This document shows, piece after piece, positions 5,870 to 53,066 of a DNA stretch of 64,000 bases (its first letter is position 1; every line of letters begins with the position of its first letter). The DNA is taken from the NCBI GenBank assembly GCA_011911785.1, contig GCA_011911785.1_4084.1; one strand, given 5' to 3'. The position numbers and the translations under genes were made by a program. Below the pieces are notes generated by a model. That model did not search any database. It saw only the letters and a list, made by a program, of their open reading frames with translations, and was not told the origin of the DNA. The DNA is from a phage.

Positions 5870-5878
5870 GGGAATATA

Positions 5879-7297: not shown

Positions 7298-7316
7298 ACA
7301 TTTATTGGAGGTAATT

Positions 7317-15475: not shown

Positions 15476-15511
15476 ATACTTTCCTTTATAAATTGTATTG
15501 TAGTGTTATAT

Positions 15512-15519
15512 TATTTATA
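15512..15519 (-). promoter_or_regulatory. T4-type late promoter element (TATAAATA on minus strand)
   Basis: Plus-strand tatttata at 15512..15519, about 40 nt upstream of the minus-strand gene start at 15475. Confidence 0.35.
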
Positions 15520-15543
15520 TTATACCAAAAGTATTTTAGGATT

Positions 15544-15566
15544 AAAAAAAGGAGTCCGAAGACTCC
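15544..15566 (-). terminator. rho-independent terminator (minus strand)
   Basis: Hairpin ggagtc-cgaa-gactcc; on the minus strand it is followed by a 7-nt U-tract; lies just downstream of gene 15580..17283. Confidence 0.55.
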
Positions 15567-15579
15567 TTAAAATATAAAG

Positions 15580-17283: not shown

Positions 17284-17295
17284 AATAGTTTTACC

Positions 17296-19185: not shown

Positions 19186-19205
19186 ATAATAACCTCCGGT
19201 ATAAA

Positions 19206-19231
19206 AGATGCCACCGAAATGGCATCTTTTT
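19206..19231. terminator. terminator-like hairpin
   Basis: agatgcca-ccgaaa-tggcatct followed by ttttt on the plus strand; lies between two minus-strand genes, so orientation and function are uncertain. Confidence 0.35.
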
Positions 19232-19243
19232 GTTTATTTGTAA

Positions 19244-21742: not shown

Positions 21743-21832
21743 TATATAATCTCCTATAAATGAATTTGTATTATGGGGAACTTATAATTAAGCTCCCCGT
21801 CGAACGAGTTTATATTATACACCTCCGATATT

Positions 21833-24800: not shown

Positions 24801-27478
24801 TTGTCATAAACCCATTCACCAATGTGTTGAGCCGTATCAGGTTCATATTTCACTTCAATATCAAAAGATTCACCCAACGGAACAGTTTCATTTGCAGGTG
24901 ATAAAGTAATCCCAGTAAGTGCATCATAACTTGCAACACATGTGTTTGTTGCGGAGTGTCCAGTTGACTTATATGTTAATGTTAATGGAGTATCTGATTT
25001 CTTAATAACCTTAAATATCCCTTTTTCATATTCTCCATTATTAAGATGTTCCAAATATTCATGGTCGAATAACCAAACACCAAAATGATATGCAGTATCA
25101 GGTTCATATTTTATATCAATAGTGAATGTTGAACCTAATGGGGCAATTTCGGATGTAGGAGAAAGTGAAATCCCAGTTAATACATCATGTGATGAATCAA
25201 CGTTAACATATGCTGGATATGCATTACCATTTTGGTAGCTCATACTAACATTTGGTGATTTCTCAATAATTTTAAAGTGAGCACGTTCAGGTGTACTGTC
25301 ATCTAAATGAGTCAAATAATATTGATTGTAATACCACGCACCAGCATGTTCTGCATTATCAGGTTCATATGTTAAATCAATATAGAAATCAGTTCCGACT
25401 GGTGCAATAATTTTAGAAGGATTTGCTGTTATTATAGTTGGTGTTACAAAAGGAACACTACCATAAATGGTATTACTTGTAATGGAACCAGACTTATAGG
25501 TAAATGCAAGTTTATCTTGTGTATCTTTAATAGCTAAGAATCTTGCATAATTTGGTGCTTCTGGGTCCATTCCTTGATACTCAAAATGTTCTTTGTCATA
25601 TTCCCATGTACCAGTGTGTTCTGCTTCATCAGGTGTATAAGTTAGTTCAATATATGCAAGTTCACCAACAGTTAATATTTGGAATCGTATAGGGTCATAA
25701 GCAGCAATTGTAAGTGATTCCAAATCTTTATAATCAACTTTACACTCATTAGTTGCAGTAACTTTACCTTCTGAGTACACTAAATCAATTTTATCAATAT
25801 GTTTTAATGCTTTAAAGTGTGCTTTATCAGCAGTTGACTTAGTACTATCAAATGTGATATATTCTTTAAACGTATCAGTATTCCATGCACCTTCGTGTTT
25901 AGCGGTGTCTGGTACATAAGATATCTCAATATCAAATTCATCACCAATCTTCACAGTTTCTGATGTAGGATTCAGTACTAGTGAAGTTAAATCAGAATAT
26001 AGGACATTGAAGCTAACTGTTTTAGCATCACCACCACCATCTGGGGTAAATGTTGCAGTTGTGGTTCCTTGCTTCTTGGCTACGTAGTACATTACATCAT
26101 CGGTACTTTTAGTTGTATCTTCTTCAACGATCCCAACTGGTTCAAATGTCCAAGTACCACCTTTTTGTGCATTGTTTGGTGTATAAGTAATGTCAATTTT
26201 ACCAGTACTTTCTGGTTTGATATTGGATACAGTACTAGGTGTTAACACTACACTTTTCAAATCAGCATACTCAACCGTGAAGTTGACTTCTGGTAAATCT
26301 TTAGTATAATCTGCACTTGGTGTAAATGTAGCTTTTGTACTACCATGTTCAAGTAGCTGGTAATCAAATTTAGTATCTGTATGCGAAATACTTTTTACTA
26401 TATTAGTATCATCAATTGACCATGTTCCACCTTGTTTGGCGTTATCAGGGGTATAGATTATTTCAATCGTGCCAGATGAACCCGCTTTGTCATCTACAGA
26501 GGCAGGTTTGAGTTCTACATTGTCCAACGCAGCATAAGTTATGTCAATTGTTGCAGCCGCAGTTTTAGTTTTATCTTCATTTAATGTGAAGAGTACACTG
26601 GTGGTTGGGTGAACATTTTCTTTGACAGCTATTGCTTTAAACGTTATACTATTTTCGTCTTCACTTACAACTTCAAGAACATTTGTGTTGTATCCACTCC
26701 ATACACCACCACGTTTAGCTGGGGCATAATCGACTGGATCATAAACAACAGATACAGTAAATGTATCATTAAGTTTTACATCAATTGGGTTTGGGTTGAG
26801 AGAAACACTAAAGAGGACGTTAGGATCATCATGTAAATGACCGAACGCGGTTGATTTTAAATGAGGTTTGTTTGTGGGAGTGAATGATATTTCTACTGGA
26901 ATATCACCATCAATGACTCCTGCTTGGAGGATAATACTATTTTTATCACTATGTACTTCAGTTAAATGTTCAGTTGGGTATGTCCATGTACCAGATTGGT
27001 CAGGCCAATCTTTCGGAGAGAAGTAAGCAGTGAATTGCATTTTATCATTTGAATAAAGAACAAAATCATCTGGCTTTATTATAACTTTAGACAACGAATT
27101 TGGCTCCACGTTCGTTCTTCTGAAAATTATTTCACCATTATGTAATTTTATTTTATTACTTTGATATTGAATACCAAAACCATACTTATTATTAATAGCA
27201 TCAGCTTCTTTTATGCAAAATGTATTATTTGCTAAAGATTTAGCAATTTCAGCATCGTCATCATCATACAACAATGTTGATTTATCTTTATTTCTACCTG
27301 TGATTTTTATATCTTTGTAAATCTTGAAATTTTCAGATATTAAATCATATGAATCGAATGTTCTTTGTTTTATAACATACAATTCTTTAACAAATACTTG
27401 CCCTTCTATCTTTGCAGCAGTAACCTGCAATCCACCTATAACAAATGGAAATTGATCTAAGCCAGCTATTGGTTTCAT
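21833..27478 (-). CDS. giant Ig-like repeat protein with shared N-terminal module
   Basis: 1881 aa; N-terminus paralogous to 13049..15475 and 12617..13030, then about 18 repeats of the ~90-aa unit. Confidence 0.55.
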   Translation of the reverse strand: MKPIAGLDQFPFVIGGLQVTAAKIEGQVFVKELYVIKQRTFDSYDLISENFKIYKDIKITGRNKDKSTLLYDDDDAEIAKSLANNTFCIKEADAINNKYGFGIQYQSNKIKLHNGEIIFRRTNVEPNSLSKVIIKPDDFVLYSNDKMQFTAYFSPKDWPDQSGTWTYPTEHLTEVHSDKNSIILQAGVIDGDIPVEISFTPTNKPHLKSTAFGHLHDDPNVLFSVSLNPNPIDVKLNDTFTVSVVYDPVDYAPAKRGGVWSGYNTNVLEVVSEDENSITFKAIAVKENVHPTTSVLFTLNEDKTKTAAATIDITYAALDNVELKPASVDDKAGSSGTIEIIYTPDNAKQGGTWSIDDTNIVKSISHTDTKFDYQLLEHGSTKATFTPSADYTKDLPEVNFTVEYADLKSVVLTPSTVSNIKPESTGKIDITYTPNNAQKGGTWTFEPVGIVEEDTTKSTDDVMYYVAKKQGTTTATFTPDGGGDAKTVSFNVLYSDLTSLVLNPTSETVKIGDEFDIEISYVPDTAKHEGAWNTDTFKEYITFDSTKSTADKAHFKALKHIDKIDLVYSEGKVTATNECKVDYKDLESLTIAAYDPIRFQILTVGELAYIELTYTPDEAEHTGTWEYDKEHFEYQGMDPEAPNYARFLAIKDTQDKLAFTYKSGSITSNTIYGSVPFVTPTIITANPSKIIAPVGTDFYIDLTYEPDNAEHAGAWYYNQYYLTHLDDSTPERAHFKIIEKSPNVSMSYQNGNAYPAYVNVDSSHDVLTGISLSPTSEIAPLGSTFTIDIKYEPDTAYHFGVWLFDHEYLEHLNNGEYEKGIFKVIKKSDTPLTLTYKSTGHSATNTCVASYDALTGITLSPANETVPLGESFDIEVKYEPDTAQHIGEWVYDKEYLQYNAAQSVEYEKGNFTVIKKSDTPLTITFEQGSVKGNSICDAKYDKLTDFSITPASEIVPLGETFVIDITYTPDTAQHIGTWDYDKDHLELLNPDDYDKPQFKVLKKSDTPLVISFTSAGITKTNTCDARYDLLTSVDLTPDSETVLNGDTFTIDISYTPDSAQHIGTWEYDTDMIKLIEPINYEQQQFQVLKRSDTPTVLKYTSTNGKYAENTCTAKYDKLVKLTLSPDNETVSVGDIIDIAITYEPSTAEHKGDWAYDETYLKLDTSKSTADVGVFEVIAKPPSTESTQQISFSSAGVTTENTCSILYDKLESVSVNPPSINVNDGDTFDVTITYVPDTALKSGKWSYETDYFSYLTSRSTESEAYFDVIKQLPDSKKLTFTSAKKSADVTVIPYSQLTDVKLSPESVTPAIGDDFYIDITYTPDTAQHIGTWNTSDFEEYLSLESDSTPDKAHFQVKKYSSSPITLTYTSSGKSSSSTCTIQHSALSAITISPSTIEVKTGDDFYIDITYTPDSAEHTGTWNTSGFDQYLTLESDSTPDRAHFKAIKTVDELELQFICGNIVSNKTICYVDYSVLESISLSPATEELDAGDDFYIDITYTPDTADHKGSWSYSLSDGSVAVGYFELLSDSTPDRAHFKALKSDPNPISLIYTSSGKTATNKCTVVHDIIQSISLGLPGKNDYHKGMEFKVNIVFKPSNVIPLAGTFSGEALNYCEYIPAKSTLTEAYFKVTAYDPSVGDSYYQQPVYGIDYFDEDEIPVDKTAEVLGAPFDLVYTIPGYAPATAQITPLRPYVESFTITPDSFTTKANSYGNYVVMTVNPPDAIGDGRLHESVVALPPYDYKVFSDSHNLMTILETPPEGIDVKFKYTQGTGHDAYSTNSVHIVSTASPLVSVDFIEKTTKSDHVNITALGKMYVAFLTNHPDDALYTGTLTYDETYLSVNWPPMKTIVHFYLIKKPENPITLTYEVKEAGITKTITITADF

Positions 27479-42013: not shown

Positions 42014-42464
42014 TTTAGTTAATGGGGAGGGAGTTAGATGCTCCCTTTTTGTTTCAGGGTGTAGCCACGGATGTGAAGAATGCTTCAACGAAAAAGCATG
42101 GGATTATCGCAGTGGTTCAGAATTCAGTACTGAAACAGTTGAAATCATCCTGAATGAACTTAACAAGCCATATGTACAAGGATTATCCCTTTTAGGTGGT
42201 GATCCATTGATGCCAAAGAATATCAGTACTGTTATTGAGTTATGTAAAGTAGTAAAAGAAAAATATCCAAATAAAGATATTTGGTGCTGGAGTGGTTATA
42301 CTTTAGAGGAAATAATAAATAATCATGCCTCCGTAATACTAGAGTACATTGATGTATTAGTTGATGGTAAATTTATTCTTGAAGAAAAGAATTTAGAATT
42401 ACCATTTAGAGGCTCTAATAATCAACGTATTCTTCGTAAAGGAGTAGATTATGCGTTATCTTGA
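41985..42464 (+). CDS. nrdG: anaerobic ribonucleotide reductase activating protein (radical SAM)
   Basis: N-terminus [35 protein letters not shown] matches the NrdG signature. Confidence 0.9.
   Translation: MNYQTIIKDDLVNGEGVRCSLFVSGCSHGCEECFNEKAWDYRSGSEFSTETVEIILNELNKPYVQGLSLLGGDPLMPKNISTVIELCKVVKEKYPNKDIWCWSGYTLEEIINNHASVILEYIDVLVDGKFILEEKNLELPFRGSNNQRILRKGVDYALS
42123..42134. repeat. 12-bp palindrome TTCAGTACTGAA
   Basis: Exact 12-mer inside nrdG, preceded by AA (aattcagtactgaa). Confidence 0.6.
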
Positions 42465-42609
42465 TATTATTTCGGAAAAGATACAGAAACGTGGAAATGA
42501 GTGGGTTGTTACTGACCACACAGGGAAGAAAGTTCTCGGTCGTCACCCAACAAGAAAAGAAGCACTTAAACAATTAAGAGCAGTTGAATTTTCTAAACAC
42601 GGCGGTTAA
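42451..42609 (+). CDS. small hypothetical protein (52 aa)
   Basis: ORF below the track threshold; ATG 42451 overlaps the nrdG 3' end; followed directly by a terminator. Confidence 0.35.
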   Translation: MRYLDIISEKIQKRGNEWVVTDHTGKKVLGRHPTRKEALKQLRAVEFSKHGG

Positions 42610-42616
42610 TATGAAG

Positions 42617-42641
42617 AAGCACCCTTTGGGTGCTTTTTTTA
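42617..42641 (+). terminator. rho-independent terminator
   Basis: Hairpin aagcaccc-ttt-gggtgctt followed by ttttt. Confidence 0.65.
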
Positions 42642-42647
42642 TACTAT

Positions 42648-42655
42648 TATAAATA
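42648..42655 (+). promoter_or_regulatory. T4-type late promoter element TATAAATA
   Basis: Exact tataaata 32 nt upstream of the ATG of the tail-fibre-like gene at 42687. Confidence 0.4.
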
Positions 42656-42686
42656 CACTATGGATATCTAGATAAAAGGGATATAT

Positions 42687-45386
42687 ATGGCAAAGAAAAT
42701 ATATGGTGGCATTGATGTTACACATAATGTAACAGTCAAAGGTAAGAGAAGTGTTCAGAGCATCAATGATAACGTATTTGATGAAAATGGCAATCTCACA
42801 ATAGATGCATATACACAAGATGATATGCTGGAAATGGTTGGTATGTTACCCATTTCTCGTTATGGTACACAAAACTATCTACCTGCTGGTGTCAATGGTA
42901 CAACAGTTGGTTCTTCAGAAAATGCTAGTTCCAGAAATACAAAATTATTTTTGGAAGATGATAACACTTTAGTAATGTTACGTCCGGGTACTAATGGAAG
43001 TTCACAGGGGATTTATTATAGTTATATGACCCAGGCGGTTGGTACAACAAATACAAGTCGTATGGTTAATACTACTCGTGCATATAAACCAAATTATTTT
43101 GGTGCTGGGTATGCAGTTTATTTGTATCCAAGCAGTGATGATATTACTTGTGGTTTGGTGAGAACTGAAAATTCTGATGGTACATATATTGATAGAGTTT
43201 TTGTTTCAGTCAATAATGGTACTATGAATGATACAATGCACACTGGTATTATTCTATCAGACCATACAGCCGTACAACCTTTTGGTGCAATACAATTTGT
43301 TATTCGTGCTGAAGATGGTTCATTATACTTTTTCAGTTTAGATACACCAAGCAATACTCTTAAAATATCCGTTACTAAAGTTACTTTTAGTCCAAGTAAT
43401 AACCCAGGTGGTGGTACTTATAGTACTACTAGAATTACTGGTTGGGCCACAAGAACTTTTTATAATGCAATGGTATATGATGACAATATTGTTCCAACTA
43501 TGAAAATAAATTCAACAAATACCAATGATAATCCATACGTTTTAATTCCAAGTGGTATTATTGGGTTTGGTGTTTATATGACAGATCCAGATTTATATGT
43601 TGCACAGAAATCTGGTACATCCGAATTCAGATTTAGATTATGTGGTGATATGTGGATGACAAATGGACGATATGACACACGCCCACAACACAGTTTTAGT
43701 ATGACTTTTGATGTTGTGACAAAACAATGTAAATTGGATAATATGTTAACGACTACACCAGTTGCTGTTAATGACACGGGTTCAAGTATGAATGTAACGG
43801 GTCAATGCATAACAAAAGATCCATTTTATCTTCACGCGGGTGGTCGTAATATTTTTAGTAATTATTGCTATGTACCATCAACTGGTGATGCATTTTGTTC
43901 ATTCTCACCAAACCTCGCAGAAGCATTGAATTTATCATACGCGAAATATCCACCACAGTCATTGTTTAATTTAATGAATGTTAGAAGTGTATCAGCAACT
44001 AATTTTATTAATGGTGTAGTATCACCAAGATTTGGTTCAGCAGTTGGATCATACCAAGTAGGCGTAGAGTTATTACCAAATAACAGTACTAAACAATATT
44101 CAAGACGTTCTGGTGATGGTCGTTTTTATCCATCCTATGCTGTACATAAAGCTACACCGAACTTCACATTTAAGTCTCTAGACTATGGTACTGTTCCTGG
44201 TTATGAACCAACACCAGACCGAGCGTTTATAACTACACCAGAATCTAGAATTTTTATAAGTTCAATTTCTGGATCAACGGTAACGACTAATGGTGGTGTT
44301 TTGGTGGCTGATAATAGAACATCAACTCCTATTAGTTTTGATTATAAAGGTAATGTACTGAATAATGGTACAATCAGTATGTCTCAAGATATAATGAATG
44401 CTATTCGAAATTCCGAATTTGCTAAAGTTGCTAGTTCATGGAATATATCACCAGAATCAATAAAAACATTATCTGTATTTGTTCCACAACAAACTGATAT
44501 TCCTGTTTTTGGTGTTCTTGCAGCATCTACTACAGCCCGTGGTTTATATGTACGAGTTGTTGAATTGAATGTCAATACAAGAACTGGTGATATTACAACA
44601 TGGTCGTTCAAACGTTTAGTACATGAAAGTGTTCAAGCTGGGGATTACAAAACAGATACCGCATATCATCTTGATAGTGGAAGTATTGGTATTACTATAT
44701 ATGATGCTGGTTCTTTCTACTTCATCGGTGGTGGTATTCCTGGGTTCTTTAATACTGTTGGTAATACAGCTTCACCATTTTTCCGTGCTACAGTAGATAA
44801 AGCAACTGCCCAATTTAATAATTTCCATATAGCGGGTCAGCGTCCGATCTATGCATTAGATGGTCAACCATTCGCTTTACCTAATATTGGGTTTGGTATT
44901 CTTCAAAGTATAGATAATACAAACAAAACAATTTTTAGAACATATGGTACTACATTAGCGGATTATAATGCATGGACTGATAAAGGAAATCCATTTATAT
45001 GTCTTGTTTCCCAAGATGTTGCTCAAGGTTTTATTATATACTTCACCGAAGAGACACCAGTACTGATATCCGGTAAACACTATACATTACCAATATCAAA
45101 TATAGATTTAACAACTGTGAAAGCAAATCCTGCCAATACTACATTTTATGTGTATATTAAATTAGTACAGGGTATTGCAAACTATCATATATCAACAACT
45201 GAATTAGCTGAAACTCATTCAATATTCTGGATTGGTACAGTGAAAACTGATAATTTACAAATAACCGAAATTAATATAGAAAAACGTTCTCGTTTAGACC
45301 TGTTTGGTTCATCATTCAACGCTGCCGGAAGTTCCTTCCCAGTAAGTTCTGGGTTCCCTTCAAGTTCTGGTAATGTGAATTGGTAA
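42687..45386 (+). CDS. putative tail fibre / receptor-binding protein (paralog A)
   Basis: 899 aa, Gly/Ser/Thr/Asn-rich; N-terminal (MLPISRYGTQNYLP) and C-terminal (SSGFPSSSGNVNW) modules shared with 45998..48739. Confidence 0.45.
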   Translation: MAKKIYGGIDVTHNVTVKGKRSVQSINDNVFDENGNLTIDAYTQDDMLEMVGMLPISRYGTQNYLPAGVNGTTVGSSENASSRNTKLFLEDDNTLVMLRPGTNGSSQGIYYSYMTQAVGTTNTSRMVNTTRAYKPNYFGAGYAVYLYPSSDDITCGLVRTENSDGTYIDRVFVSVNNGTMNDTMHTGIILSDHTAVQPFGAIQFVIRAEDGSLYFFSLDTPSNTLKISVTKVTFSPSNNPGGGTYSTTRITGWATRTFYNAMVYDDNIVPTMKINSTNTNDNPYVLIPSGIIGFGVYMTDPDLYVAQKSGTSEFRFRLCGDMWMTNGRYDTRPQHSFSMTFDVVTKQCKLDNMLTTTPVAVNDTGSSMNVTGQCITKDPFYLHAGGRNIFSNYCYVPSTGDAFCSFSPNLAEALNLSYAKYPPQSLFNLMNVRSVSATNFINGVVSPRFGSAVGSYQVGVELLPNNSTKQYSRRSGDGRFYPSYAVHKATPNFTFKSLDYGTVPGYEPTPDRAFITTPESRIFISSISGSTVTTNGGVLVADNRTSTPISFDYKGNVLNNGTISMSQDIMNAIRNSEFAKVASSWNISPESIKTLSVFVPQQTDIPVFGVLAASTTARGLYVRVVELNVNTRTGDITTWSFKRLVHESVQAGDYKTDTAYHLDSGSIGITIYDAGSFYFIGGGIPGFFNTVGNTASPFFRATVDKATAQFNNFHIAGQRPIYALDGQPFALPNIGFGILQSIDNTNKTIFRTYGTTLADYNAWTDKGNPFICLVSQDVAQGFIIYFTEETPVLISGKHYTLPISNIDLTTVKANPANTTFYVYIKLVQGIANYHISTTELAETHSIFWIGTVKTDNLQITEINIEKRSRLDLFGSSFNAAGSSFPVSSGFPSSSGNVNW

Positions 45387-45396
45387 TGGAGATAAT

Positions 45397-45987
45397 ATGG
45401 CTTATAAATTTAGATCTGATGTGGAAGCGTATGCTTCCGTTAAATCACAAGGAAAAAATACTGGGACCACGATAACTGATCGTTCTGGTAATGTGTATCA
45501 AGCTGATGCTAATGGGAATGTTGATGTACCACTCATGAGTACAGATGATGTGAATTACATTACCAGTTCCTTTCCGTTATCACAATTTGGTTCACTTTAC
45601 AGTACTGAACCATTGGGTATTTCTGCTGCTGGTTTCAATTTAACTTTCAGCAAAGAATTACCGTTATTCATGGCGGGAGCGGCGTATACCCTCCCAGCTA
45701 AAACAATAACAGATCCCGGTGTTTCTGGTACTAATATTGAAACACATTATGTATATGTTATATTAGATGTTGGGGTAGCTGACTACCTCATTTCTAAAAC
45801 TCAACGCCCTGAAAGTAGTGTTAATATGTACATAGGACAACTGACAGTTTTCCCAGATGGCATTACAGGGGTCAGTATAAATAAAGTGTCAAGATTTGAC
45901 GACTTCAGAGTAAGTGCTACAAAAATTGGTTCAGCTATCCCTATCAGTTCTGGTACACCAGATGTGAATAGTGGGACAGAATGGTAA
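45397..45987 (+). CDS. short tail-fibre-related protein
   Basis: 196 aa; C-terminus SSGTPDVNSGTEW is paralogous to the C-termini of both flanking large proteins. Confidence 0.4.
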   Translation: MAYKFRSDVEAYASVKSQGKNTGTTITDRSGNVYQADANGNVDVPLMSTDDVNYITSSFPLSQFGSLYSTEPLGISAAGFNLTFSKELPLFMAGAAYTLPAKTITDPGVSGTNIETHYVYVILDVGVADYLISKTQRPESSVNMYIGQLTVFPDGITGVSINKVSRFDDFRVSATKIGSAIPISSGTPDVNSGTEW

Positions 45988-45997
45988 AGGAATATAT

Positions 45998-48739
45998 ATG
46001 GCTTCGAGACGAATTATAGGAAACGCAGAAATACTAGGGAATTTGAAAATTAATGGAAAGTATGCATTACGTTCCTTTAATGGATTCCCTGCTGATTCTG
46101 CTGGTAAAATCACTTACCAATATTATGACAAAGCGGAAGTAGATCAGATGTTTGATATGCTTCCAGTTTCAAGGGTAGGTGATCAAGATTACCTACCGAT
46201 GAGTATTAACGGTACATTTGAAGGTGCTTCTTCCTTTTCATTTGAAAAAATAATGCAACCTTGTATCATTGAAAATGATGGTACTGGTGTAATTTTACGT
46301 GCAGGTACAAATGGAAGTTCTTATGGTTACTATTATGCTTATATTAAAAATATAAGAGATATAGAAACACTAACTCAAGATAATATAATTATAACCAACA
46401 CGATGTATAGACCTTCTGTGCTACCAAGTACTGATTACATTTATGAATTTTATGGGTCAAATGCATATGAATTACTATTTTGGGAATCAACTGATAGAGC
46501 ATCATACTACCTTACATTAACAAATGAAACATTAAATGAATCAGCACACAAACATTGCAGAATTCCAAAAACAGCAATAACAAATAAACCAATCTATGCA
46601 CACATCGTAAATGATTCAGTTTATATATGGTGTATGGATTCAAGTGTATTGAGTAGTGTTCGCGGGTGTGCATTTATCATATACACAGTACCTTTAACTG
46701 CATTTAATACTGGTTCAGTTTCGACAGTAACACAGATTAGTGGTTATTCAGGAAGAACTATAAGAAATGTAACATACACTGCATCTAATAATATTCGTGT
46801 TTATGATAGTTATTCAGTGTTGGGTTCAGGTGGTGATGCACTAATAGCATATGATAATGGTGTTTCCAGAATAGATTATTGGGAAAATAACGCATTTAAT
46901 ACCCAAGCAGTTCTTAGCCCTGATGGTACAAAAATAAGAGTAGCGATATATCCAGGGTTTCGTGTCTTTACCGCAACAAAAACATCTAGTGTATATGCAC
47001 TTGGTATCAGCTTTACATATGATATCAGTACTAAAACAATGACACTTGACGGTTCTGAACGTGGTCCAATCAGAGTATCAGCTAATACATCAACTGGTAG
47101 TATAACAGTGAGTAACCCGTTTTCAATCAATATGGAAAACTTTACAGGGTTTTATGATGGTGCACTTGGTAACTATGGTTCAATCTGTCAAACTTCTGAT
47201 GGTTTTGTTTTCACTACCAAAGCAAGATGGTCATCCATGCCGACCTATGCAGTACAAACATACAAAGTTTCTGGTACACCTTATGATAGTTGGGTTGCTA
47301 AAACACGTACTGGTAGTAATTTAAAACGTGTAGAAGTAATGCCAGTTTATGGCTCCCCTGTCGGTGAAAACTTAATAGGTGTTCGTTTCGTAGATAAACG
47401 TAAGATACTTGTTGCATGTTCTGGTACTGCTGATGGAATTTCTTATGGTTATGATAGTACAGTTTTTACTGAAATAGGTGAGAATCCAACTTATAGTTAT
47501 AAAAACTTGGAACAAAATACCACAATGAATGGTTTTGCACCATCAGGTAATAGACACTATTTAAGTACTGATTACAAATATGCAGGTATGGTAACATTGG
47601 TTGATGCCAATGGAAATGTCAGCACTTATGGATCTTCTTTAATAGAAGGTATCGATAAACCAGCTTATGGAAAATTCGACCCTGTTACAATGGACTTTAA
47701 CAGTGATAGATATGAAATTTCAGGAACTACATTATCAGGTATAGGTTATAATGCCGTTGCTAAAGCTGGATTGACTGGAATAACTGAACATAAAACTGTT
47801 TTTTATTATGTACCTGATACTACATATTCTAAATCTATTGCAGTCACTTCTGCACTAAACGGTACTACCAACGTGTGTTATATTATTTTTTCCGAAATAT
47901 CATGTAGTGCACTGGGTACAAGTGGTACTATAATTTTACGTGGTATTAGTGTTGATACAGCAAGATATACATCAATCACGAATACATTCCAAATTTCACC
48001 AAATGAAATGATCAAACGTTGGGCTGGTATGACTGTTGCTAAGTTTAGTGGTTTTAACTACTTAGGTGTGAACATTTTATATGGCATTGATACCCCAGGT
48101 TGGACTCGTTATCCTAACATGATTGCTAAAGTGAAAAATGGTATTATTTCAAGTCAACGATATATGGAAACAACTTATATTTCAAACGCACAATTTGATA
48201 TAGGTACAATTCCAGGGATTGGGTTTGGATATTACCAAATGAACAAAAACGATTATCAAACTAAATCAGTTTTTGCTGTATGTGGTACTACTGAAGCAGA
48301 TATGGATAAACTAATATCTGGTAATGAAACGATATCACAGTACTTAGTTGTTGCTTCACAGGATGTGGCACAAGGGTTCAACGTGTACTTTTCACAAGAA
48401 GTACCAGTTTTCTTGGGTGGAAAGTTTGCAAAGATACCACCGACTATGATAGACTTATCTACCATAAGTACTACACCAGATAATTCAACATTCTACATAT
48501 ATGCGGTTATGGATAGAGGTACATCTACAGCATCGTATCAGATATCACTATATCAATTATCAGAAACTATGACATCAACCTACATTGGTAAGATAGTAAC
48601 TGATGCTAATGGTATTGCATCAATCGAGTCTGAAAAAGTGTCCAGATTCTTGCTATACCGCCCAAGTACCTACAATCGTGGTTCTGCTATCCCAGCTAGT
48701 TCTGGGTTACCATCACAATCTGGTACTCGTTGGAGTTAA
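45998..48739 (+). CDS. putative tail fibre / receptor-binding protein (paralog B)
   Basis: Start set to ATG 45998 (MASRRIIGN) with aaaggaa RBS; MLPVSRVGDQDYLP and C-terminal SSGLPSQSGTRWS. Confidence 0.45.
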   Translation: MASRRIIGNAEILGNLKINGKYALRSFNGFPADSAGKITYQYYDKAEVDQMFDMLPVSRVGDQDYLPMSINGTFEGASSFSFEKIMQPCIIENDGTGVILRAGTNGSSYGYYYAYIKNIRDIETLTQDNIIITNTMYRPSVLPSTDYIYEFYGSNAYELLFWESTDRASYYLTLTNETLNESAHKHCRIPKTAITNKPIYAHIVNDSVYIWCMDSSVLSSVRGCAFIIYTVPLTAFNTGSVSTVTQISGYSGRTIRNVTYTASNNIRVYDSYSVLGSGGDALIAYDNGVSRIDYWENNAFNTQAVLSPDGTKIRVAIYPGFRVFTATKTSSVYALGISFTYDISTKTMTLDGSERGPIRVSANTSTGSITVSNPFSINMENFTGFYDGALGNYGSICQTSDGFVFTTKARWSSMPTYAVQTYKVSGTPYDSWVAKTRTGSNLKRVEVMPVYGSPVGENLIGVRFVDKRKILVACSGTADGISYGYDSTVFTEIGENPTYSYKNLEQNTTMNGFAPSGNRHYLSTDYKYAGMVTLVDANGNVSTYGSSLIEGIDKPAYGKFDPVTMDFNSDRYEISGTTLSGIGYNAVAKAGLTGITEHKTVFYYVPDTTYSKSIAVTSALNGTTNVCYIIFSEISCSALGTSGTIILRGISVDTARYTSITNTFQISPNEMIKRWAGMTVAKFSGFNYLGVNILYGIDTPGWTRYPNMIAKVKNGIISSQRYMETTYISNAQFDIGTIPGIGFGYYQMNKNDYQTKSVFAVCGTTEADMDKLISGNETISQYLVVASQDVAQGFNVYFSQEVPVFLGGKFAKIPPTMIDLSTISTTPDNSTFYIYAVMDRGTSTASYQISLYQLSETMTSTYIGKIVTDANGIASIESEKVSRFLLYRPSTYNRGSAIPASSGLPSQSGTRWS

Positions 48740-48746
48740 AAAAATT

Positions 48747-48777
48747 AAGCCTGTCTATTGACAGGCTTTTCTTTTAT
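48747..48777 (+). terminator. rho-independent terminator
   Basis: Hairpin aagcctgtc-tatt-gacaggctt followed by a T-tract. Confidence 0.6.
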
Positions 48778-48786
48778 CCGTATAAT
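48758..48786 (+). promoter_or_regulatory. consensus sigma70 promoter (TTGACA-17 nt-TATAAT) overlapping the terminator
   Basis: Perfect -35 at 48758..48763 (inside the terminator 3' arm) and perfect -10 at 48781..48786; RBS aggagg and ATG 48809 downstream. Confidence 0.55.
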
Positions 48787-48808
48787 GCTAAAAAACTAGG
48801 AGGAAACT

Positions 48809-49369
48809 ATGGTACAATCACGTTTTAGACCACCGCTGTCACCAGCACAGTTACAACGTTTAAAAGAAAAAGAGCAGCACTTTCAGAATACCCTAGTAGT
48901 TCGTTTGCTATGCAAAAGTGTAACTCTTAAAGATTTTGTGAAAACCGATAATGAACGTAAATCACTTATCGAACTTAAGTACAAGTTAAGTAAGCATAAA
49001 CTATATGGATTACTAGCAGAATACACCCAAAATCCATTCAGTGATCGTTGGTCTATGGTTCAAAAAAAACTGTGGGGTGGTGATGAAGAATTCACACTAC
49101 GTGATTTAAAAAATGCAATCATGTTTAAGGTCGATTATACACCAGCAGGGATTGAACACAGAACCGAAGAAACTATCATTCAATCAAGAGATTTATCATG
49201 TGTTGTTTCTTCAAACTTCGGTGTTCATTATGATATGCTTGATGACGATGAGTTAATGATCCTGTTCCATGTGATTATTGGTGCTGAAGATATTAAAGAA
49301 AAGTTATCACAAATTGAAGAAGAACAGCGTAAATTCAAAATCCAAAAGAGAATAACTGATTTATATTAA
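48809..49369 (+). CDS. hypothetical protein, tandem paralog family member 1
   Basis: Shares DNERKSLIELKYKLSKHKL and LFHVIIGAEDIKEKLSQIEEEQRKFK with the next two ORFs. Confidence 0.45.
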   Translation: MVQSRFRPPLSPAQLQRLKEKEQHFQNTLVVRLLCKSVTLKDFVKTDNERKSLIELKYKLSKHKLYGLLAEYTQNPFSDRWSMVQKKLWGGDEEFTLRDLKNAIMFKVDYTPAGIEHRTEETIIQSRDLSCVVSSNFGVHYDMLDDDELMILFHVIIGAEDIKEKLSQIEEEQRKFKIQKRITDLY

Positions 49370-49378
49370 GAGGTTACT

Positions 49379-49879
49379 ATGTTTTTCAAAAAGAAAAATA
49401 ATGATCACAAAAGAGAAAATGTAGAGTGGTGTACATTAATTCTTCCAGTACTGATGAAAAGCTATTCTTTAAAAGAAATTATCCGTACTGATGAAGATCG
49501 TAGAACTATACTTAAAATTAAAGAAATGTTAAGTTCTCATTCTCTAATGAAACTAATCACAGACCTAGTTAAAGAACCATACGGTGAACGTTGGTTATAT
49601 GAACCAGTATTCATATATGGTAATCATATCAACCGTGTAAAATTGTTTGATACCGAAACTAAGGTTGATTTTAATGCAGTAACATATTCATCTAAAGATT
49701 ATGATGAAAAACATACATTTGTTTATATTAACGGAGATGCGAATATTCTACCTAAACATGAACAAATGTTTTTGTTTCATTTACTCGTTGCACTTCGTGA
49801 GCTTGAAACAAAGTACAAGAAGTTAGAATACGAGCAGCATAAACTTAATGAATTTAATAAATTAAAAGGATTATACTAA
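49379..49879 (+). CDS. hypothetical protein, tandem paralog family member 2
   Basis: DEDRRTILKIKEMLSSHSL and LFHLLVALRELETKYKKLEYEQHKL. Confidence 0.45.
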   Translation: MFFKKKNNDHKRENVEWCTLILPVLMKSYSLKEIIRTDEDRRTILKIKEMLSSHSLMKLITDLVKEPYGERWLYEPVFIYGNHINRVKLFDTETKVDFNAVTYSSKDYDEKHTFVYINGDANILPKHEQMFLFHLLVALRELETKYKKLEYEQHKLNEFNKLKGLY

Positions 49880-50385
49880 TGTTCTTCGGTAAACATAAAG
49901 TAAAAGATGATGGTATTCTTCAGTACTTAGTTGCGTTGATTTTAAACAAAAGTACTTTATTAGTACCTAATATTAAATCAGACAAAGATCGCAGAGAAAT
50001 TATTCAAAACAAATATCTTCTTTCAAAATGTGATCCTGTTATCTATGCATTTTGTAAGTACTGTTCAAAAAACTTGTTCAGTATTCATGTAGATTTTGAA
50101 AGACAAGAAAGCAGCACACGAAATTCTTGTTTTAAAGTGTATATGATTAATGATTTAAATCGTGGGAATCGAGGGTTCATGTTCTGGATGGACGGACGTG
50201 ATATACGTGTGCGTATTAAAATGTCAGTTGGGTGGAAGGATTTTTCAACTTCTGTATCTGATTTTCTTGTACTTCACGCACTATATAACAGTATTACTAA
50301 CGTGAAAGATATCGACAAGAAAATTCAGGAACAAAAAGAATTGGATGATGCAAAGAACGAATACTTACAACATTACAGGAGTTAA
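49879..50385 (+). CDS. hypothetical protein, tandem paralog family member 3
   Basis: DKDRREIIQNKYLLSKCD and LVLHALYNSITNVKDIDKKIQEQKEL. Confidence 0.45.
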   Translation: MFFGKHKVKDDGILQYLVALILNKSTLLVPNIKSDKDRREIIQNKYLLSKCDPVIYAFCKYCSKNLFSIHVDFERQESSTRNSCFKVYMINDLNRGNRGFMFWMDGRDIRVRIKMSVGWKDFSTSVSDFLVLHALYNSITNVKDIDKKIQEQKELDDAKNEYLQHYRS

Positions 50386-50388
50386 TAT

Positions 50389-50790
50389 ATGGATCTTGAT
50401 GATGTGTATAGCACCATAAGACAGATGGATTCGTATAAAAAAGTATATAGTGGTTACAAGAGTGATAAACAATTTTATGGAATCGGGGAGTATGATGTAA
50501 TATCATTCGAATACGATGATACTGGTGAAAGTTCCATTAATATTGTTTGTCCTCGTGACCGTGAAAATAACTTCATGTACGTTGAAATCAATAATGATGG
50601 TTTACACTTTACTAAAATATTAAATGGTGGCAAACAATCTATTTCTCTGGATTTATCCGAAGAAGAAAAGTTCTTTCAAGAAGATACTATAATCAATCTA
50701 GGTTTTAGTTTATCAGAATACAAAGTTCTTCATAAAGATTTCATGAAGTACTATAATGGGTTTCTTAAGGAGCTAACATTACATCTATGA
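50389..50790 (+). CDS. hypothetical protein
   Basis: 133-aa ORF. Confidence 0.4.
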   Translation: MDLDDVYSTIRQMDSYKKVYSGYKSDKQFYGIGEYDVISFEYDDTGESSINIVCPRDRENNFMYVEINNDGLHFTKILNGGKQSISLDLSEEEKFFQEDTIINLGFSLSEYKVLHKDFMKYYNGFLKELTLHL

Positions 50791-53066
50791 ATAATAACAA
50801 ATTTCTTGAACAAACAATTGTGAAGCACTTAGCAGGTTCACAAGCGTATGGAACCAGTACACCTGAAAGTGATACGGATTATCGTGGTATTTTTCTTGCT
50901 AACAAAGAATTTATCCTTACACCTTTTTATAATGTCAAGGAAGTTTCTGATAAAAAAGAAGAAGATACTAAATTCTATGAACTAAATCAGTACTTAAGAC
51001 TATACACAGAGGCTAACCCAAATATCCTTGAATCACTATGGGTTGATCCTGAACACATCGTAGAAAGTACTGAAATCTATGATTATCTACGTACATTCAA
51101 TCAACAATTACTTAGTTCTAAGATTGCATTCTCTTATACCGGTTATGCATATAATCAGGTTAAACGTATGTCCAATCACCACGGGTGGATGGATAAAGAG
51201 CGTATTGCTGAAAAACGTCTAAATGAAATCTTAGAAGATTTTCCAGTAGATGAAACTTTAGCATGGATGTATGAAAACTTCCCACACTATTTGGTAGAAC
51301 GTTTAGATACTTCTAAACTACATCCATTTAATGCTAAGAAAATAGATTTTGAAAAATACATGCGTGATACTTCATTGCAGTTAGTTTCGACTCATCCGTT
51401 GAAACAGTATCATTTTGTACGTTTAGTACATAATTACAGTACTGATAAAGTACTAGACCGTGATTTCAACTTATTGGATTATAACAATGGGTACGAATTA
51501 ATTCATTACGGTGAAAATATCTTTGGTGTTATTATCAATCCTAATGAAAGTACAATTAACGCTGATGGTTCTTTACGTTATTTCAACAAAGAACGCAGTA
51601 CTGAAGAATTGAAAGTACGACCTGAACTCATTGTCAAATTCAATGAAAAAGAATACAGTGAGAACAGTGAGAACCGTAAAAGTTATCACAAATGGAAAGA
51701 GAATCGTAATGCTAAACGTGCAATTCTTGAATCCAAACACGGCTATGACTGTTATAGTTTTGATACTGAATTCTTAACTAAAGATGGTTGGAAATTGTTT
51801 GATGATATCACTGAAAATGATCTATTAGCAACATTTGATAAAAATCACAAAATAGAATATCAGAAATATACTGAACGTTTTGATAATTTATATAATGGCA
51901 ACCTATATCACTTCACTGGTTATCACCAAGATACTTTAGTGACTGCTAACCATCGAATGTATGTTAAGGATTATGCACGTAATCAGAAAAAAGATATGTC
52001 TGATTGGAAATTTGTGGAAGCTGCACAATTAAAAGAAACATATAAAATTTTGAATACATTATCCCCAATAACAAACGAATACCAAGATAAAAAAAGTCCA
52101 TTTGACTACATGGATATCAAAGTTTATCTTCAACTTATGGGATGGTTTATTTCAGATGGTAGTATAAGTTTCAGAGATGGTAAAGTAAAATCATTATATA
52201 TTTCCCAATCAAAAGCAAGTCCAGGTATGCGTTGTGCTTTAACAAAATACAAACAATCTGGTCAATTGGTTTTCCATGAATACATTGTAGAAAAGAAAGA
52301 TTATCAAGCGAATGATGAATCAAGATTTACATTCCCACGTGAAGTGGCTGAAGCATTATATAATGATTGTGGACATGGTTCATATAATAAACGAATTCCA
52401 AATTGGGTATTTGATTTAACAAAACGCAAAATGGATTTTCTACTGAAAGGTTTGTTACAAGGTGATGGTACAAAACGCAATTTAGTTAATGATAATGATA
52501 CATATGTATATTATACTGCGAATTCATTATTAGCAGATGATGTTCAAAAACTAGCATTACTGTGCGGGTATGAAACATCAAAATGGGGGCCGTACACAAA
52601 CGAGACTAATTTTGGACGTGTTGATATGTATCAAATTCATATCAACATGAAACCGAAATCCGAAAAAATGAACATGAAACAAAATCTTGAAAAAATTCCA
52701 GTTACTAATTACAGAACTGTTTGTTTTTCTGTTCCCAACGGCACACTCGTTACTCGTAGAAATGGTAAAATAGCATTACATGGAAACTGCAAACATGCTA
52801 TGCATACGATCAGACTTTTGAATACAGCCGAAGAAGCATTACAAAGCGGTATTATCCTCGTGAAACGTCCTGATGCTGATATGCTAATGGATATTCGCAA
52901 CGGTAAATGGAAATATGAAGAAGTCATGGATTATTTCAATGAAAAGGTTGACTATATTCGTAATGTAGTGTATCCTAAGTCAGTACTACCAAAGAAACCA
53001 GATATTGCATTAGCAGCGAAAGTACTTTTAGATATTCGTGAAATGCAATGGTATAGTTCAAAATAA
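50787..53066 (+). CDS. Pol-beta-superfamily nucleotidyltransferase-domain protein interrupted by a putative intein
   Basis: N-terminal NTase signature GS-x10-DTD (HLAGSQAYGTSTPESDTDYRG); central ~346-aa insertion with intein-like blocks. Confidence 0.55.
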   Translation: MNNNKFLEQTIVKHLAGSQAYGTSTPESDTDYRGIFLANKEFILTPFYNVKEVSDKKEEDTKFYELNQYLRLYTEANPNILESLWVDPEHIVESTEIYDYLRTFNQQLLSSKIAFSYTGYAYNQVKRMSNHHGWMDKERIAEKRLNEILEDFPVDETLAWMYENFPHYLVERLDTSKLHPFNAKKIDFEKYMRDTSLQLVSTHPLKQYHFVRLVHNYSTDKVLDRDFNLLDYNNGYELIHYGENIFGVIINPNESTINADGSLRYFNKERSTEELKVRPELIVKFNEKEYSENSENRKSYHKWKENRNAKRAILESKHGYDCYSFDTEFLTKDGWKLFDDITENDLLATFDKNHKIEYQKYTERFDNLYNGNLYHFTGYHQDTLVTANHRMYVKDYARNQKKDMSDWKFVEAAQLKETYKILNTLSPITNEYQDKKSPFDYMDIKVYLQLMGWFISDGSISFRDGKVKSLYISQSKASPGMRCALTKYKQSGQLVFHEYIVEKKDYQANDESRFTFPREVAEALYNDCGHGSYNKRIPNWVFDLTKRKMDFLLKGLLQGDGTKRNLVNDNDTYVYYTANSLLADDVQKLALLCGYETSKWGPYTNETNFGRVDMYQIHINMKPKSEKMNMKQNLEKIPVTNYRTVCFSVPNGTLVTRRNGKIALHGNCKHAMHTIRLLNTAEEALQSGIILVKRPDADMLMDIRNGKWKYEEVMDYFNEKVDYIRNVVYPKSVLPKKPDIALAAKVLLDIREMQWYSSK
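51750..52787 (+). mobile_element. putative intein with LAGLIDADG-type homing endonuclease domain
   Basis: Block A CYSFDTEFLT, block B TANH, two LAGLIDADG-like motifs (LMGWFISDGSIS, LLKGLLQGDGTK), C-terminal NGKIALHGN followed by Cys; in frame with the host ORF. Confidence 0.5.

What the first reader, a model, noticed from the sequence alone, without database searches (positions are those of the whole stretch)
42687..48739. Paralogous tail-fibre-like proteins with shared N- and C-terminal modules and a short third paralog
The 899-aa and ~914-aa products share an N-terminal module (MLP[IV]SR.G.Q.YLP ... LRPGTNGSS.G.YY.Y) and a C-terminal module ending in SSG.PS.SG..W; the 196-aa ORF between them carries only the C-terminal module. 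A late-promoter TATAAATA lies upstream of the first. This looks like a duplicated receptor-binding-protein cassette whose divergent central regions may give dual host specificity.
Basis: partly seen in the sequence, partly recalled or inferred. Interest (0 to 1): 0.45.

Follow-up and report, generated by a model that had tools for sequence, protein, structure and literature searches.

The report
Jumbo-phage propeller receptor-binding protein operon
Three neighbouring late genes of a giant E. coli phage encode a family of probable host-recognition proteins: a small baseplate-anchor domain split open by a large sugar-binding-type propeller array, plus one "headless" copy, which gives candidate host-range genes for a phage group where they were labelled "hypothetical".

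Summary
The window is an Asteriusvirus jumbo coliphage (96% identical to phage A4). A (899 aa) and C (913 aa, from ATG 45998) are full-length paralogs: 26% identity overall, 22% in the centre. B (196 aa) carries the C-module and also the first ~65 residues of the N-module.

The trio is one late operon (terminator, TATAAATA, three genes, terminator). This layout is conserved in four other phages. It sits exactly where phage RaK2 carries its tail-spike cluster. All three lineages were detected in virion proteomes of relatives (phAPEC6, GAP32).

The trio evolves far faster than its neighbours. A shows imported mosaic segments within the propeller region.

Best reading: baseplate-attached, carbohydrate-directed receptor-binding proteins, plus a conserved headless adaptor. 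Dual host specificity is untested. This is a new variant of a known kind, of moderate interest.

The parts
42617..42642 (+). Intrinsic-terminator-like hairpin (GCACCCTTTGGGTGC) plus T-run. It closes the upstream nrdD-nrdG unit.
   Evidence: Sequence. The scan lists the hairpin. An equivalent hairpin sits at the same place in A4, EJP2, phAPEC6 and CBB.
42648..42655 (+). T4-type late-promoter motif TATAAATA, 31 nt upstream of the ATG of A.
   Evidence: The motif occurs only 3 times in the window against 11.2 +/- 3.1 expected. (T)ATAAATA is conserved at -38 to -42 in A4, EJP2, phAPEC6 and CBB, although the proteins are only 40-53% identical. The CBB paper predicts ATAAATA as the late promoter of Rak2-like phages (PMC5259590).
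42687..45386 (+). Gene A, 899 aa, 98 kDa. Residues 1-70 form the N-half of the anchor, 80-775 the beta-propeller array, 776-866 the beta-sandwich C-half of the anchor, and 867-899 a disordered Gly/Ser/Pro tail ending in Trp.
   Evidence: The ortholog phAPEC6 gp323c was found in the virion by MS.
43092..43301 (+). Mosaic hot spot 1 in A (aa 136-205), within the propeller region.
   Evidence: Against phage A4: 58% aa identity in residues 151-200, a 5-residue length difference (two small gaps), pS 0.53 and pN 0.20. Background pS is 0.01-0.03.
43587..44036 (+). Mosaic hot spot 2 in A (aa 301-450).
   Evidence: pS is 0.39-0.41 against A4, while the N-module and residues 751-899 are identical.
45397..45987 (+). 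Gene B, 196 aa, 'headless'. Residues 1-66 are the N-module (helix 49-57), 70-168 the beta-sandwich, and 170-196 the conserved tail. There are no propellers.
   Evidence: It is orthologous to full-length CBB_148. pN/pS against A4 is 0.06. GGAG ribosome-binding site.
45998..48739 (+). Gene C, 913 aa, 100 kDa. Same architecture as A; the C-module spans aa ~791-912 (48368-48733).
   Evidence: It is orthologous to CBB_149 / GAP32_145, and GAP32_145 was found in GAP32 virion MS.
45876..45883 (+). Second TATAAATA inside B, ~115 nt upstream of C. It is a possible internal late promoter; this was not tested.
48747..48768 (+). Terminator hairpin plus T-run that ends the A-B-C unit.
   Evidence: 9-bp stem, 5 G-C pairs. 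Conserved in A4, EJP2, phAPEC6 and CBB.
48758..48786 (+). Perfect sigma-70 promoter (TTGACA-17-TATAAT) overlapping the terminator. It starts the next, unrelated unit of small paralogs and marks the 3' boundary of the cassette.
   Evidence: 12 of 12 matches. Conserved in related phages.

Best explanation
A-B-C is a single late-transcribed operon of an Asteriusvirus jumbo phage. It encodes virion proteins of one family.

The family's conserved ends are two halves of one small anchor domain, not two separate modules. The anchor has the 'shoulder' fold that lactococcal-phage receptor-binding proteins and T6SS TssK use to trimerise and dock on a baseplate. In B the two halves are contiguous. In A and C they are separated by a ~700-residue beta-propeller array of lectin/glycosidase type.

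Proposed mechanism: A and C oligomerise through the shoulder domain and dock at the baseplate periphery. Their propellers face host surface carbohydrate, LPS being the receptor class shown for the relative EJP2. Host range is retuned by recombinational replacement of propeller segments.

B is the propeller-less ortholog of a third full-length paralog. It is kept under purifying selection as a structural adaptor or co-assembling subunit that fills the third docking position.

Shown here: paralogy, the predicted folds, operon anatomy and its conservation, synteny with the RaK2 spike cluster, fast and mosaic evolution, and virion detection of relatives (from published data).

Inferred: oligomeric state, baseplate location, carbohydrate binding, and the role of B.
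For: - Paralogy and module structure.
- Virion MS: phAPEC6 gp323c, the A ortholog directly after nrdG, gave 4 unique peptides. GAP32_144 and GAP32_145, the B- and C-lineage orthologs, are listed as found by GAP32 MS.
- Synteny: RaK2 has nrdD / nrdG / a small ORF and then its tail-fibre/spike cluster ORF525-534 in the same slot.
- Other contexts: Goslar_00026 lies between Peptidase_S74 fibre genes; RAY gp19/20 lie next to a baseplate gene.
- Fusions: longer family members are fused to PHROG 'tail protein', 'tail fiber protein' and 'virion structural protein' modules, and to a Phage_fiber_2 repeat.
- Late operon: the late-promoter/terminator layout is conserved in four other phages.
- Evolutionary rate: against phAPEC6, the trio is 41-53% identical in aa while nrdD and the nucleotidyltransferase are 87-88%. 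Against A4, differences are confined to two propeller segments with pS 0.4-0.5.
- Conservation among orthologs is highest at both ends and lowest at residues 151-300.
- EJP2 uses LPS outer core/O-antigen as receptor (PMC10213699).
Against: - There is no direct evidence for baseplate location, oligomeric state or ligand.
- MS support is thin. phAPEC6 gp323c had 5.6% coverage. CBB_148/149 were not detected in CBB's own MS. The RAY/Deimos-Minion MS used crude lysates.
- The N-module is modelled at low confidence (pLDDT 26-48 in A residues 1-80, 37-67 in B residues 1-60). The claim that it completes the shoulder fold is therefore an inference from topology and from its contiguity in B.
- Topology differs from every solved shoulder-containing RBP: here the head is inserted within the shoulder rather than following it.
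- The phAPEC6 authors assigned other proteins (gp248, gp256, gp314) as tail fibres.
- The propeller fold alone cannot separate binding from catalysis.
Confidence: 0.6

Rival explanations
1. Enzymatic tail-spike variant. The propeller array is a glycosidase or depolymerase, like phage endosialidases or GH43/GH32/GH130 enzymes. It would cleave O-antigen, capsule or biofilm polysaccharide rather than merely bind it.
Confidence: 0.15
2. Accessory virion decoration. The proteins would be the bases or tips of the 'hairy' whiskers on the tail sheath and capsid of Asteriusvirus and CBB, or a secondary adhesin for reversible binding or entanglement, rather than baseplate primary receptor binders.
For: phAPEC6 and CBB have unexplained whiskers with trimeric-looking bases, and their genes are unassigned. 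The trio lies outside the main structural gene block. MS abundance is low.
Against: The whiskers are ~119 nm thin filaments, which does not fit a 100-kDa globular propeller protein. The neighbouring giant Ig-repeat proteins at 13049-27478 are better candidates. The family also occurs in phages for which no whiskers are reported in the sources consulted here, such as Goslar, EL and Agricanvirus. The best fold matches of the anchor domain are baseplate RBPs and TssK.
Confidence: 0.13
3. Non-structural late proteins, for example secreted or cytoplasmic lectins, or superinfection or lysis-timing factors. On this reading the MS detection in virions is carry-over.
For: MS coverage is low. The locus is embedded among nucleotide-metabolism genes.
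Against: All three lineages were detected in two independent virion proteomes, phAPEC6 and GAP32. The anchor has an RBP-shoulder fold. Relatives are fused to tail-fibre modules. The operon has a late promoter.
Confidence: 0.05
4. B is a decaying remnant (pseudogene) of a deleted paralog and has no function.
For: It lacks the ~720-residue centre present in its ortholog CBB_148.
Against: Short forms of 190-202 aa are intact ORFs in the window phage, A4, EJP2, phAPEC6 and in 17 database clusters, down to 26-48% identity. pN/pS is 0.06. B has its own ribosome-binding site. It models as a compact high-confidence domain. Invariant residues are retained.
Confidence: 0.03

Closest known systems
Shoulder domain of lactococcal phage RBPs (p2 ORF18, PDB 2WZP; phage 1358, 4L92), the stand-alone SPP1 gp22 (2XC8), and T6SS TssK
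   Different: No sequence similarity is detectable. In known RBPs the shoulder is N-terminal and the neck and head follow it. Here the head (~700 aa of propellers) is inserted inside the domain, and a conserved ~30-aa Gly/Ser/Pro tail ending in Trp is added. The hosts here are Gram-negative and the phage is a myovirus. Trimerisation and baseplate docking were not shown.
phiKZ gp131-gp135 paralog set (twelve baseplate fibres; hetero-hexameric fibre base; seven-bladed propeller head; PMC13250141)
   Same: Both are tandem paralogs in a jumbo phage that share an anchoring domain. Some carry a beta-propeller head and others lack it. The fibres are short and baseplate-attached, and are thought to bind the cell surface.
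   Different: HMMs of the A/B/C family find no similarity to gp131-135, gp145 or gp146. The gp131 propeller is C-terminal rather than inserted. Hetero-oligomer formation by A, B and C is only a hypothesis.
RaK2 / Alcyoneusvirus tail-fibre/tail-spike cluster gp525-534
   Same: It occupies the same genomic slot, immediately after nrdD, nrdG and a small ORF. It is virion-associated and variable between related phages.
   Different: The sequences are unrelated. According to the CBB supplementary table, the A/B/C family has no RaK2 homolog. The RaK2 proteins are annotated as podovirus-type spikes/depolymerases, not propeller proteins.
Beta-propeller RBP heads and lectins: staphylococcal phage phi11 Gp45 (5EFV), phage NF5 RBP (9M7X), fungal fucose lectins AAL/AofleA, sialidases
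   Same: The central region has a propeller fold. A carbohydrate receptor (LPS) is known for the relative EJP2.
   Different: Identity is 5-11%. There are no sialidase motifs. The array is far larger: ~13-14 four-stranded units by DSSP, against 5-7 blades.
PHROG families phrog_3573, phrog_26864, phrog_7449 (all annotated 'unknown function')
   Same: A and C match phrog_3573 (E 4e-195 and 8e-207). B matches phrog_26864 (E 8e-44). These are the sequence families the proteins belong to.
   Different: The PHROG entries carry no fold, function or architecture.

Membership tests
phrog_3573 / phrog_26864 (jumbo-phage family, function unknown) | Significant full-length HMM match | tested here: met
   A scores 3.9e-195 and C 7.8e-207 to phrog_3573. 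B scores 8e-44 to phrog_26864. The family has 512 clusters at 50% identity with E <= 1e-3.
RBP/TssK shoulder-domain superfamily | Shoulder beta-sandwich fold | tested here: met
RBP/TssK shoulder-domain superfamily | N-terminal helix packing with the sandwich and forming the trimer axis | tested here: inconclusive
RBP/TssK shoulder-domain superfamily | Homotrimer docking onto a baseplate | not testable with these tools
   No multimer prediction was available. Only indirect support exists: virion MS of relatives and baseplate or fibre gene neighbours in RAY and Goslar.
RBP/TssK shoulder-domain superfamily | Linear order shoulder - neck - head | tested here: not met
   In A and C the ~700-aa head lies between the N-part and the sandwich of the shoulder (alignment A3).
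Classical tail fibres / tailspikes (trimeric beta-helix or fibrous folds, e.g. T4 gp12/gp37, P22 TSP, RaK2 spikes) | Fibrous or beta-helix fold, or Pfam fibre/collar/Peptidase_S74 domains | tested here: not met
   The fold is all-beta globular propeller. A, B and C have no Pfam fibre domain. Only the distant fused member P0166 has a Phage_fiber_2 repeat.
Classical tail fibres / tailspikes | Location in the host-recognition gene slot of the phage lineage | tested here: met
   The position after nrdG is the same as that of the RaK2 ORF525-534 spike cluster.
Sialidase / exo-alpha-sialidase propellers | Asp-box repeats (S-x-D-x-G-x-T-W) and an (F/Y)RIP motif | tested here: not met
   A regex scan finds no Asp-box in A or C. 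A has no RIP, and C has one isolated RIP.
Beta-propeller lectin-like heads | Propeller fold | tested here: met
Beta-propeller lectin-like heads | Carbohydrate binding | not testable with these tools
phiKZ gp131 paralog family | Sequence homology to gp131-135 | tested here: not met
   hmmsearch with the A1 and A2 profiles finds nothing in phiKZ gp130-135, gp145 or gp146, but does find EL ORF115, RAY gp18-20 and Goslar_00026.
T4-type late transcription unit | TATAAATA -10 element upstream, conserved in relatives and avoided elsewhere | tested here: met
   Site at 42648-42655. The motif occurs 3 times against 11.2 expected. It is conserved at -38 to -42 in four other phages.
T4-type late transcription unit | Phage-encoded gp55-like late sigma factor; late timing of the mRNA | not tested
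   The sigma factor was not looked for, since it would most likely lie outside the 64-kb window. No transcriptome was consulted.

The most novel reading that the evidence does not exclude
A, B and C co-assemble through their shared split shoulder domain into one hetero-oligomeric baseplate appendage, analogous to the gp131/133/134/135 hetero-hexamer of phiKZ. Each appendage would then display two different propeller heads (A and C) spaced by the headless B. That would be a built-in dual-specificity receptor-binding organelle, based on a domain-insertion architecture not yet seen in any solved phage RBP.
Probability: 0.15. Interest if true: 0.7.

Novelty: new variant of a known kind. Interest (0 to 1): 0.45.

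Why it matters
Asteriusvirus and Mimasvirus jumbo phages (121Q, PBECO4, phAPEC6, EJP2, GAP32, CBB) are being proposed for therapy and biocontrol. In every GenBank record examined here these three genes are labelled 'hypothetical', 'structural protein', 'minor tail protein' or 'putative membrane protein', and in one record two of them are not annotated at all.

Assigning this conserved, fast-evolving late operon an RBP-type anchor fold and a lectin-like head gives concrete candidates for host-range determinants. It also points to the segments of A (aa 136-205 and 301-450) that differ between two near-identical phages with different isolation hosts.

The inferred architecture is a baseplate-anchor domain split by a large inserted head, with a naturally headless paralog. 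It would add a new way of building receptor-binding proteins, and it links myovirus jumbo phages to the p2-RBP/TssK shoulder lineage. The family is large: 512 clusters at 50% identity, spread across several jumbo-phage genera.

Tried and rejected
- Sequence searches of the PDB found nothing. This covers phmmer with A and C and a profile of 19 sequences at E <= 10, apart from one chance hit at E 0.25.
- Pfam and NCBIfam gave no family. Only DUF5484 (E 0.015, below cut-off) and a spurious SpoVA hit appeared.
- hhalign between three sub-regions of the propeller array found no internal sequence repeats. Model coordinates are not exposed, so the number of propellers could not be fixed.
- Sialidase membership was rejected because no Asp-box or RIP motifs are present.
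- Homology to phiKZ gp131-135, gp145 and gp146 was rejected.
- The CBB 'structural protein' annotation turned out to rest on GAP32 MS, not on CBB's own MS. The RAY MS was on crude lysates. Neither is counted as direct virion evidence for CBB or RAY.
- I looked for further paralogs in the window, and for the A4_503/504 fibre pair. None was found.
- Papers on Sharanji, fEgEco12 and the Alcyoneusvirus adsorption complex contained nothing on these genes.
- GTG 45971 as the start of C was rejected in favour of ATG 45998.
- 'B is a pseudogene' was rejected on conservation grounds.
Full report
**Origin of the window.** Region 42600-48800 is 96.4% identical to Escherichia phage A4 (ON286972, Asteriusvirus, 355 kb) and 92.6% identical to phage ph0011. 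The window is therefore part of a Rak2-like jumbo coliphage. In A4 the three genes are annotated 'hypothetical protein'. In EJP2 the first is called 'minor tail protein'.

**Check of the observation.**
- A (899 aa) and C align end to end at 26% identity, E 2e-45.
- B residues 77-196 match the last ~120 residues of A (36%, E 2e-18) and of C (41%, E 1e-21).
- Taken alone, the central ~700 residues of A and C are only 22% identical (E 1e-3 to 3e-9). The C-module is 42% and the N-module 33% identical.
- No other paralog is detected in the window by BLASTP at E <= 0.01.

Two corrections are needed.
1. B also contains the N-terminal ~66 residues of the family. BLASTP against A gives E 7e-5. An HMM of the N-termini of the large proteins hits B residues 8-66 at E 5e-6 and other short forms at 2e-20 to 1e-4. 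It hits no unrelated ORF of the window at E <= 10. Alignment A3 shows that short forms are the N-module joined to the C-module, and large forms are the same plus a ~700-residue insertion.
2. C almost certainly starts at ATG 45998 (913 aa), not GTG 45971. It has an AGGA ribosome-binding site, the same 10-nt spacing as between A and B, matches the A4 annotation, and its N-terminal alignment begins there.

**Operon anatomy.** The elements, in order, are:
- a G+C-rich hairpin with a T-run (42617-42642), which ends the nrdD-nrdG unit;
- TATAAATA at 42648-42655;
- A, B and C, each with its own ribosome-binding site;
- a 9-bp hairpin terminator at 48747-48768;
- a perfect sigma-70 promoter (TTGACA-17-TATAAT, 48758-48786) overlapping that terminator, which starts the next unit.

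TATAAATA occurs only 3 times in 64 kb against 11.2 +/- 3.1 expected. The other two copies lie 37 nt upstream of a large Ig-repeat gene and inside B, upstream of C.

The same layout is present in A4, EJP2, phAPEC6 and the Mimasvirus CBB. It consists of a hairpin, (T)ATAAATA at -38 to -42, three genes, and a hairpin with an embedded promoter. This holds although the proteins are only 36-53% identical. The CBB authors independently proposed ATAAATA as the late promoter of this phage group (PMC5259590).

**What the proteins are.** Pfam, NCBIfam and sequence searches of the PDB give nothing. PHROGs place A and C in phrog_3573 and B in phrog_26864, both of unknown function.

The family is large. It has 512 clusters at 50% identity with E <= 1e-3, and 207 with E <= 1e-30. 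tblastn finds it in 110 phage records. These include Asteriusvirus, Mimasvirus (GAP32, CBB), Agricanvirus and Goslar. Elvirus EL and several others share only the C-module in that search.

*Model of A.* The AlphaFold2 model from a 19-sequence alignment has mean pLDDT 78.5. Residues 80-775 are confident and all-beta, with about 13-14 four-stranded units. Residues 780-866 are of moderate confidence. Residues 1-77 and 867-899 are disordered.
- Foldseek agrees, and also recovers the propeller-containing receptor-binding proteins of phages phi11 and NF5.
- There is no fibre or beta-helix fold.
- Sialidase signature motifs are absent.

*Model of B.* The model from a 21-sequence alignment has a compact beta-sandwich at residues 70-168 (pLDDT 86-94). 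A helix at 49-57 precedes it and a disordered tail follows.
- Scores then fall to background.
- What these proteins share is the 'shoulder' domain. From established knowledge of p2 ORF18 and TssK, that domain trimerises and docks the protein on a baseplate.

In A and C the propeller array is inserted into it. This step is an inference, because the N-part is modelled at low confidence and no oligomer could be predicted.

**Evidence that the proteins are virion and host-recognition components.**
1. phAPEC6 gp323c is the gene directly after nrdG and the ortholog of A. It is in the published virion proteome with 4 unique peptides and 5.6% coverage (PMC7247149).
2. The B and C orthologs are intact but unannotated in that GenBank record, so they could not have been identified.
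3. GAP32_144 and GAP32_145, the orthologs of CBB_148 and CBB_149, are listed as found by MS in GAP32 virions (CBB paper, supplement S5). They were not found in CBB's own MS.
4. In RaK2 the order nrdD, two small genes, nrdG and a small ORF is followed immediately by the tail-fibre/tail-spike cluster ORF525-534. The family has no RaK2 homolog. The same slot therefore holds alternative adsorption cassettes.
5. In Goslar the single family member lies between two YomR-like fibre genes, one of them annotated with a Peptidase_S74 domain. In RAY, gp19 and gp20 lie next to a baseplate gene, and gp18 carries the C-module.
6. Longer family members are fused to PHROG modules annotated 'virion structural', 'tail protein', 'minor tail protein' and 'tail fiber protein'. 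One carries a Phage_fiber_2 repeat just before the family region.
7. [quoted passage not shown]

**Evolution.**
- *Three ancient lineages exist.* A corresponds to CBB_147 (37% identity in the centre) and C to CBB_149 (33%). B corresponds to CBB_148, which is full-length at 916 aa. The assignment of B rests on its N-module (41% identical to CBB_148, second only to EJP2_B at 44%) and on the 46-49% C-module identity of EJP2_B and phAPEC6_B to CBB_148. The window B's own C-module does not discriminate: it is 37% identical to CBB_148 and 41% to the C lineage. The centre of CBB_148 is 28-29% identical to the C lineage.
- *B is the third paralog without its propellers.* Short forms of 190-202 aa occur in 17 database clusters. 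B has pN/pS 0.06 against A4. It is a maintained protein, not a relic.
- *The trio evolves much faster than its neighbours.* Against phAPEC6, nrdD is 87% and the nucleotidyltransferase 88% identical, but A, B and C are 53, 41 and 50%.
- *A is the only gene here that differs notably from A4.* Neighbouring genes are 94-100% identical, mostly 98-100%. A is 92%. The differences are confined to residues ~136-205 (pS 0.53) and ~301-450 (pS ~0.4), against a background pS of 0.01-0.03. The N-module and residues 751-899 are identical. This is the signature of imported recombinant segments within the propeller region, as expected for a host-range determinant. pN/pS is below 1 throughout, so there is no evidence for point-mutational positive selection.
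- *Among A orthologs,* conservation is highest at both ends (0.70-0.77) and lowest at residues 151-300 (0.48-0.52).

**Mechanism proposed.** Late in infection the operon is transcribed from the TATAAATA promoter. A and C oligomerise through the shoulder domain, dock at the baseplate periphery and present propeller heads to LPS-type carbohydrate. Segmental recombination in the heads changes specificity. B supplies a head-less shoulder unit, acting as an adaptor or co-assembling subunit in the position that a full-length third paralog occupies in Mimasvirus.

The recent phiKZ atlas offers an analogy. Paralogs gp131, gp133, gp134 and gp135 share an N-terminal domain, form a hetero-hexameric fibre base, and gp131 carries a seven-bladed propeller (PMC13250141). 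Those proteins show no sequence relationship to this family.

**Rivals.**
- Enzymatic spike: the fold is compatible but the motifs are absent.
- Whisker or decoration protein: size and shape fit poorly, and the Ig-repeat giants at 13049-27478 fit better.
- Non-structural protein: contradicted by two proteomes and by the fold.
- B as a pseudogene: contradicted by its conservation.

**Comparison with known systems and novelty.** The sequence family was already in databases with unknown function. Its paralogy in CBB was noted in a supplementary table, and individual members had appeared in virion proteomes.

New here:
- the fold assignment;
- the split-shoulder, inserted-propeller architecture;
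- the recognition of B as a conserved headless ortholog;
- the conserved late-operon layout in the RaK2 spike slot;
- the mosaic hot spots in A.

This is a new variant of a known kind (phage receptor-binding proteins), not a new kind of system. Dual host specificity remains a hypothesis.

**Unexplained.**
- The invariant C-terminal Gly/Ser/Pro tail ending in Trp.
- The number of propellers.
- The role of the internal TATAAATA at 45876-45883.

Noticed in passing
50787-53066 (insertion 51751-52788): The RlaP-family nucleotidyltransferase gene carries a ~1-kb in-frame insertion that is absent from phage A4. The insertion has a LAGLIDADG_3 match (aa 552-602) and intein-like junctions (Cys at the N-junction, ...HGN/C at the C-junction). 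It is probably an intein with a homing endonuclease.
   Followed up: partly
junction 53053/53100: Relative to its closest relative A4, the window lacks a 3.6-kb segment. That segment encodes A4_503 ('putative tail fiber', 209 aa) and A4_504 ('tail protein I', 927 aa). A4_504 appears to correspond, by position and size, to the virion-detected tail fibre gp314c of phAPEC6. tblastn finds no copy elsewhere in the window. This is a second difference in adsorption genes between the two phages.
   Followed up: partly
13049-27478, minus strand: Five large genes (808, 567, 629, 832 and 1881 aa), most of them rich in Ig-like domains (Big_2, HYDIN/ASH-type); the 567-aa product has only one weak PHROG hit and no Pfam domain. 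The 808- and 1881-aa proteins share an N-terminal phrog_33171 'virion structural protein' domain. A TATAAATA at 15512-15519 (-) lies 37 nt upstream of the 808-aa gene. These are plausible candidates for the unexplained 'hairy' whiskers of Asteriusvirus and CBB.
   Followed up: no
48758-50385: Three tandem small paralogs (186, 166 and 168 aa; phrog_18641/phrog_7868, unknown function) lie behind a perfect sigma-70 promoter that overlaps the trio's terminator. They are only 33-37% identical to their phAPEC6 counterparts, so they also evolve fast.
   Followed up: partly
L004 (phAPEC6 MK817115) 4397-4981 and 5001-7727: The GenBank record of phAPEC6 leaves the intact orthologs of B and C unannotated, and a 114-nt spurious ORF is annotated instead. 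The published virion proteome therefore could not have detected them.
   Followed up: yes
45876-45883: A third TATAAATA lies inside gene B, ~115 nt upstream of the start of C. It could be an internal late promoter for C.
   Followed up: no
A 867-899, B 170-196, C-terminal ~30 aa of C: The family ends in a conserved ~30-aa Gly/Ser/Pro-rich tail, disordered in the two models made here (A and B). It has invariant G, P, S, G and P positions and an invariant (near-)terminal Trp. Its function is unknown; it may be a docking peptide.
   Followed up: partly
42451-42609: A small 52-aa ORF lies between nrdG and the terminator. A small ORF occupies the same position in A4 (A4_494) and in RaK2 (ORF524). 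It marks the conserved left boundary of the adsorption-gene slot.
   Followed up: no
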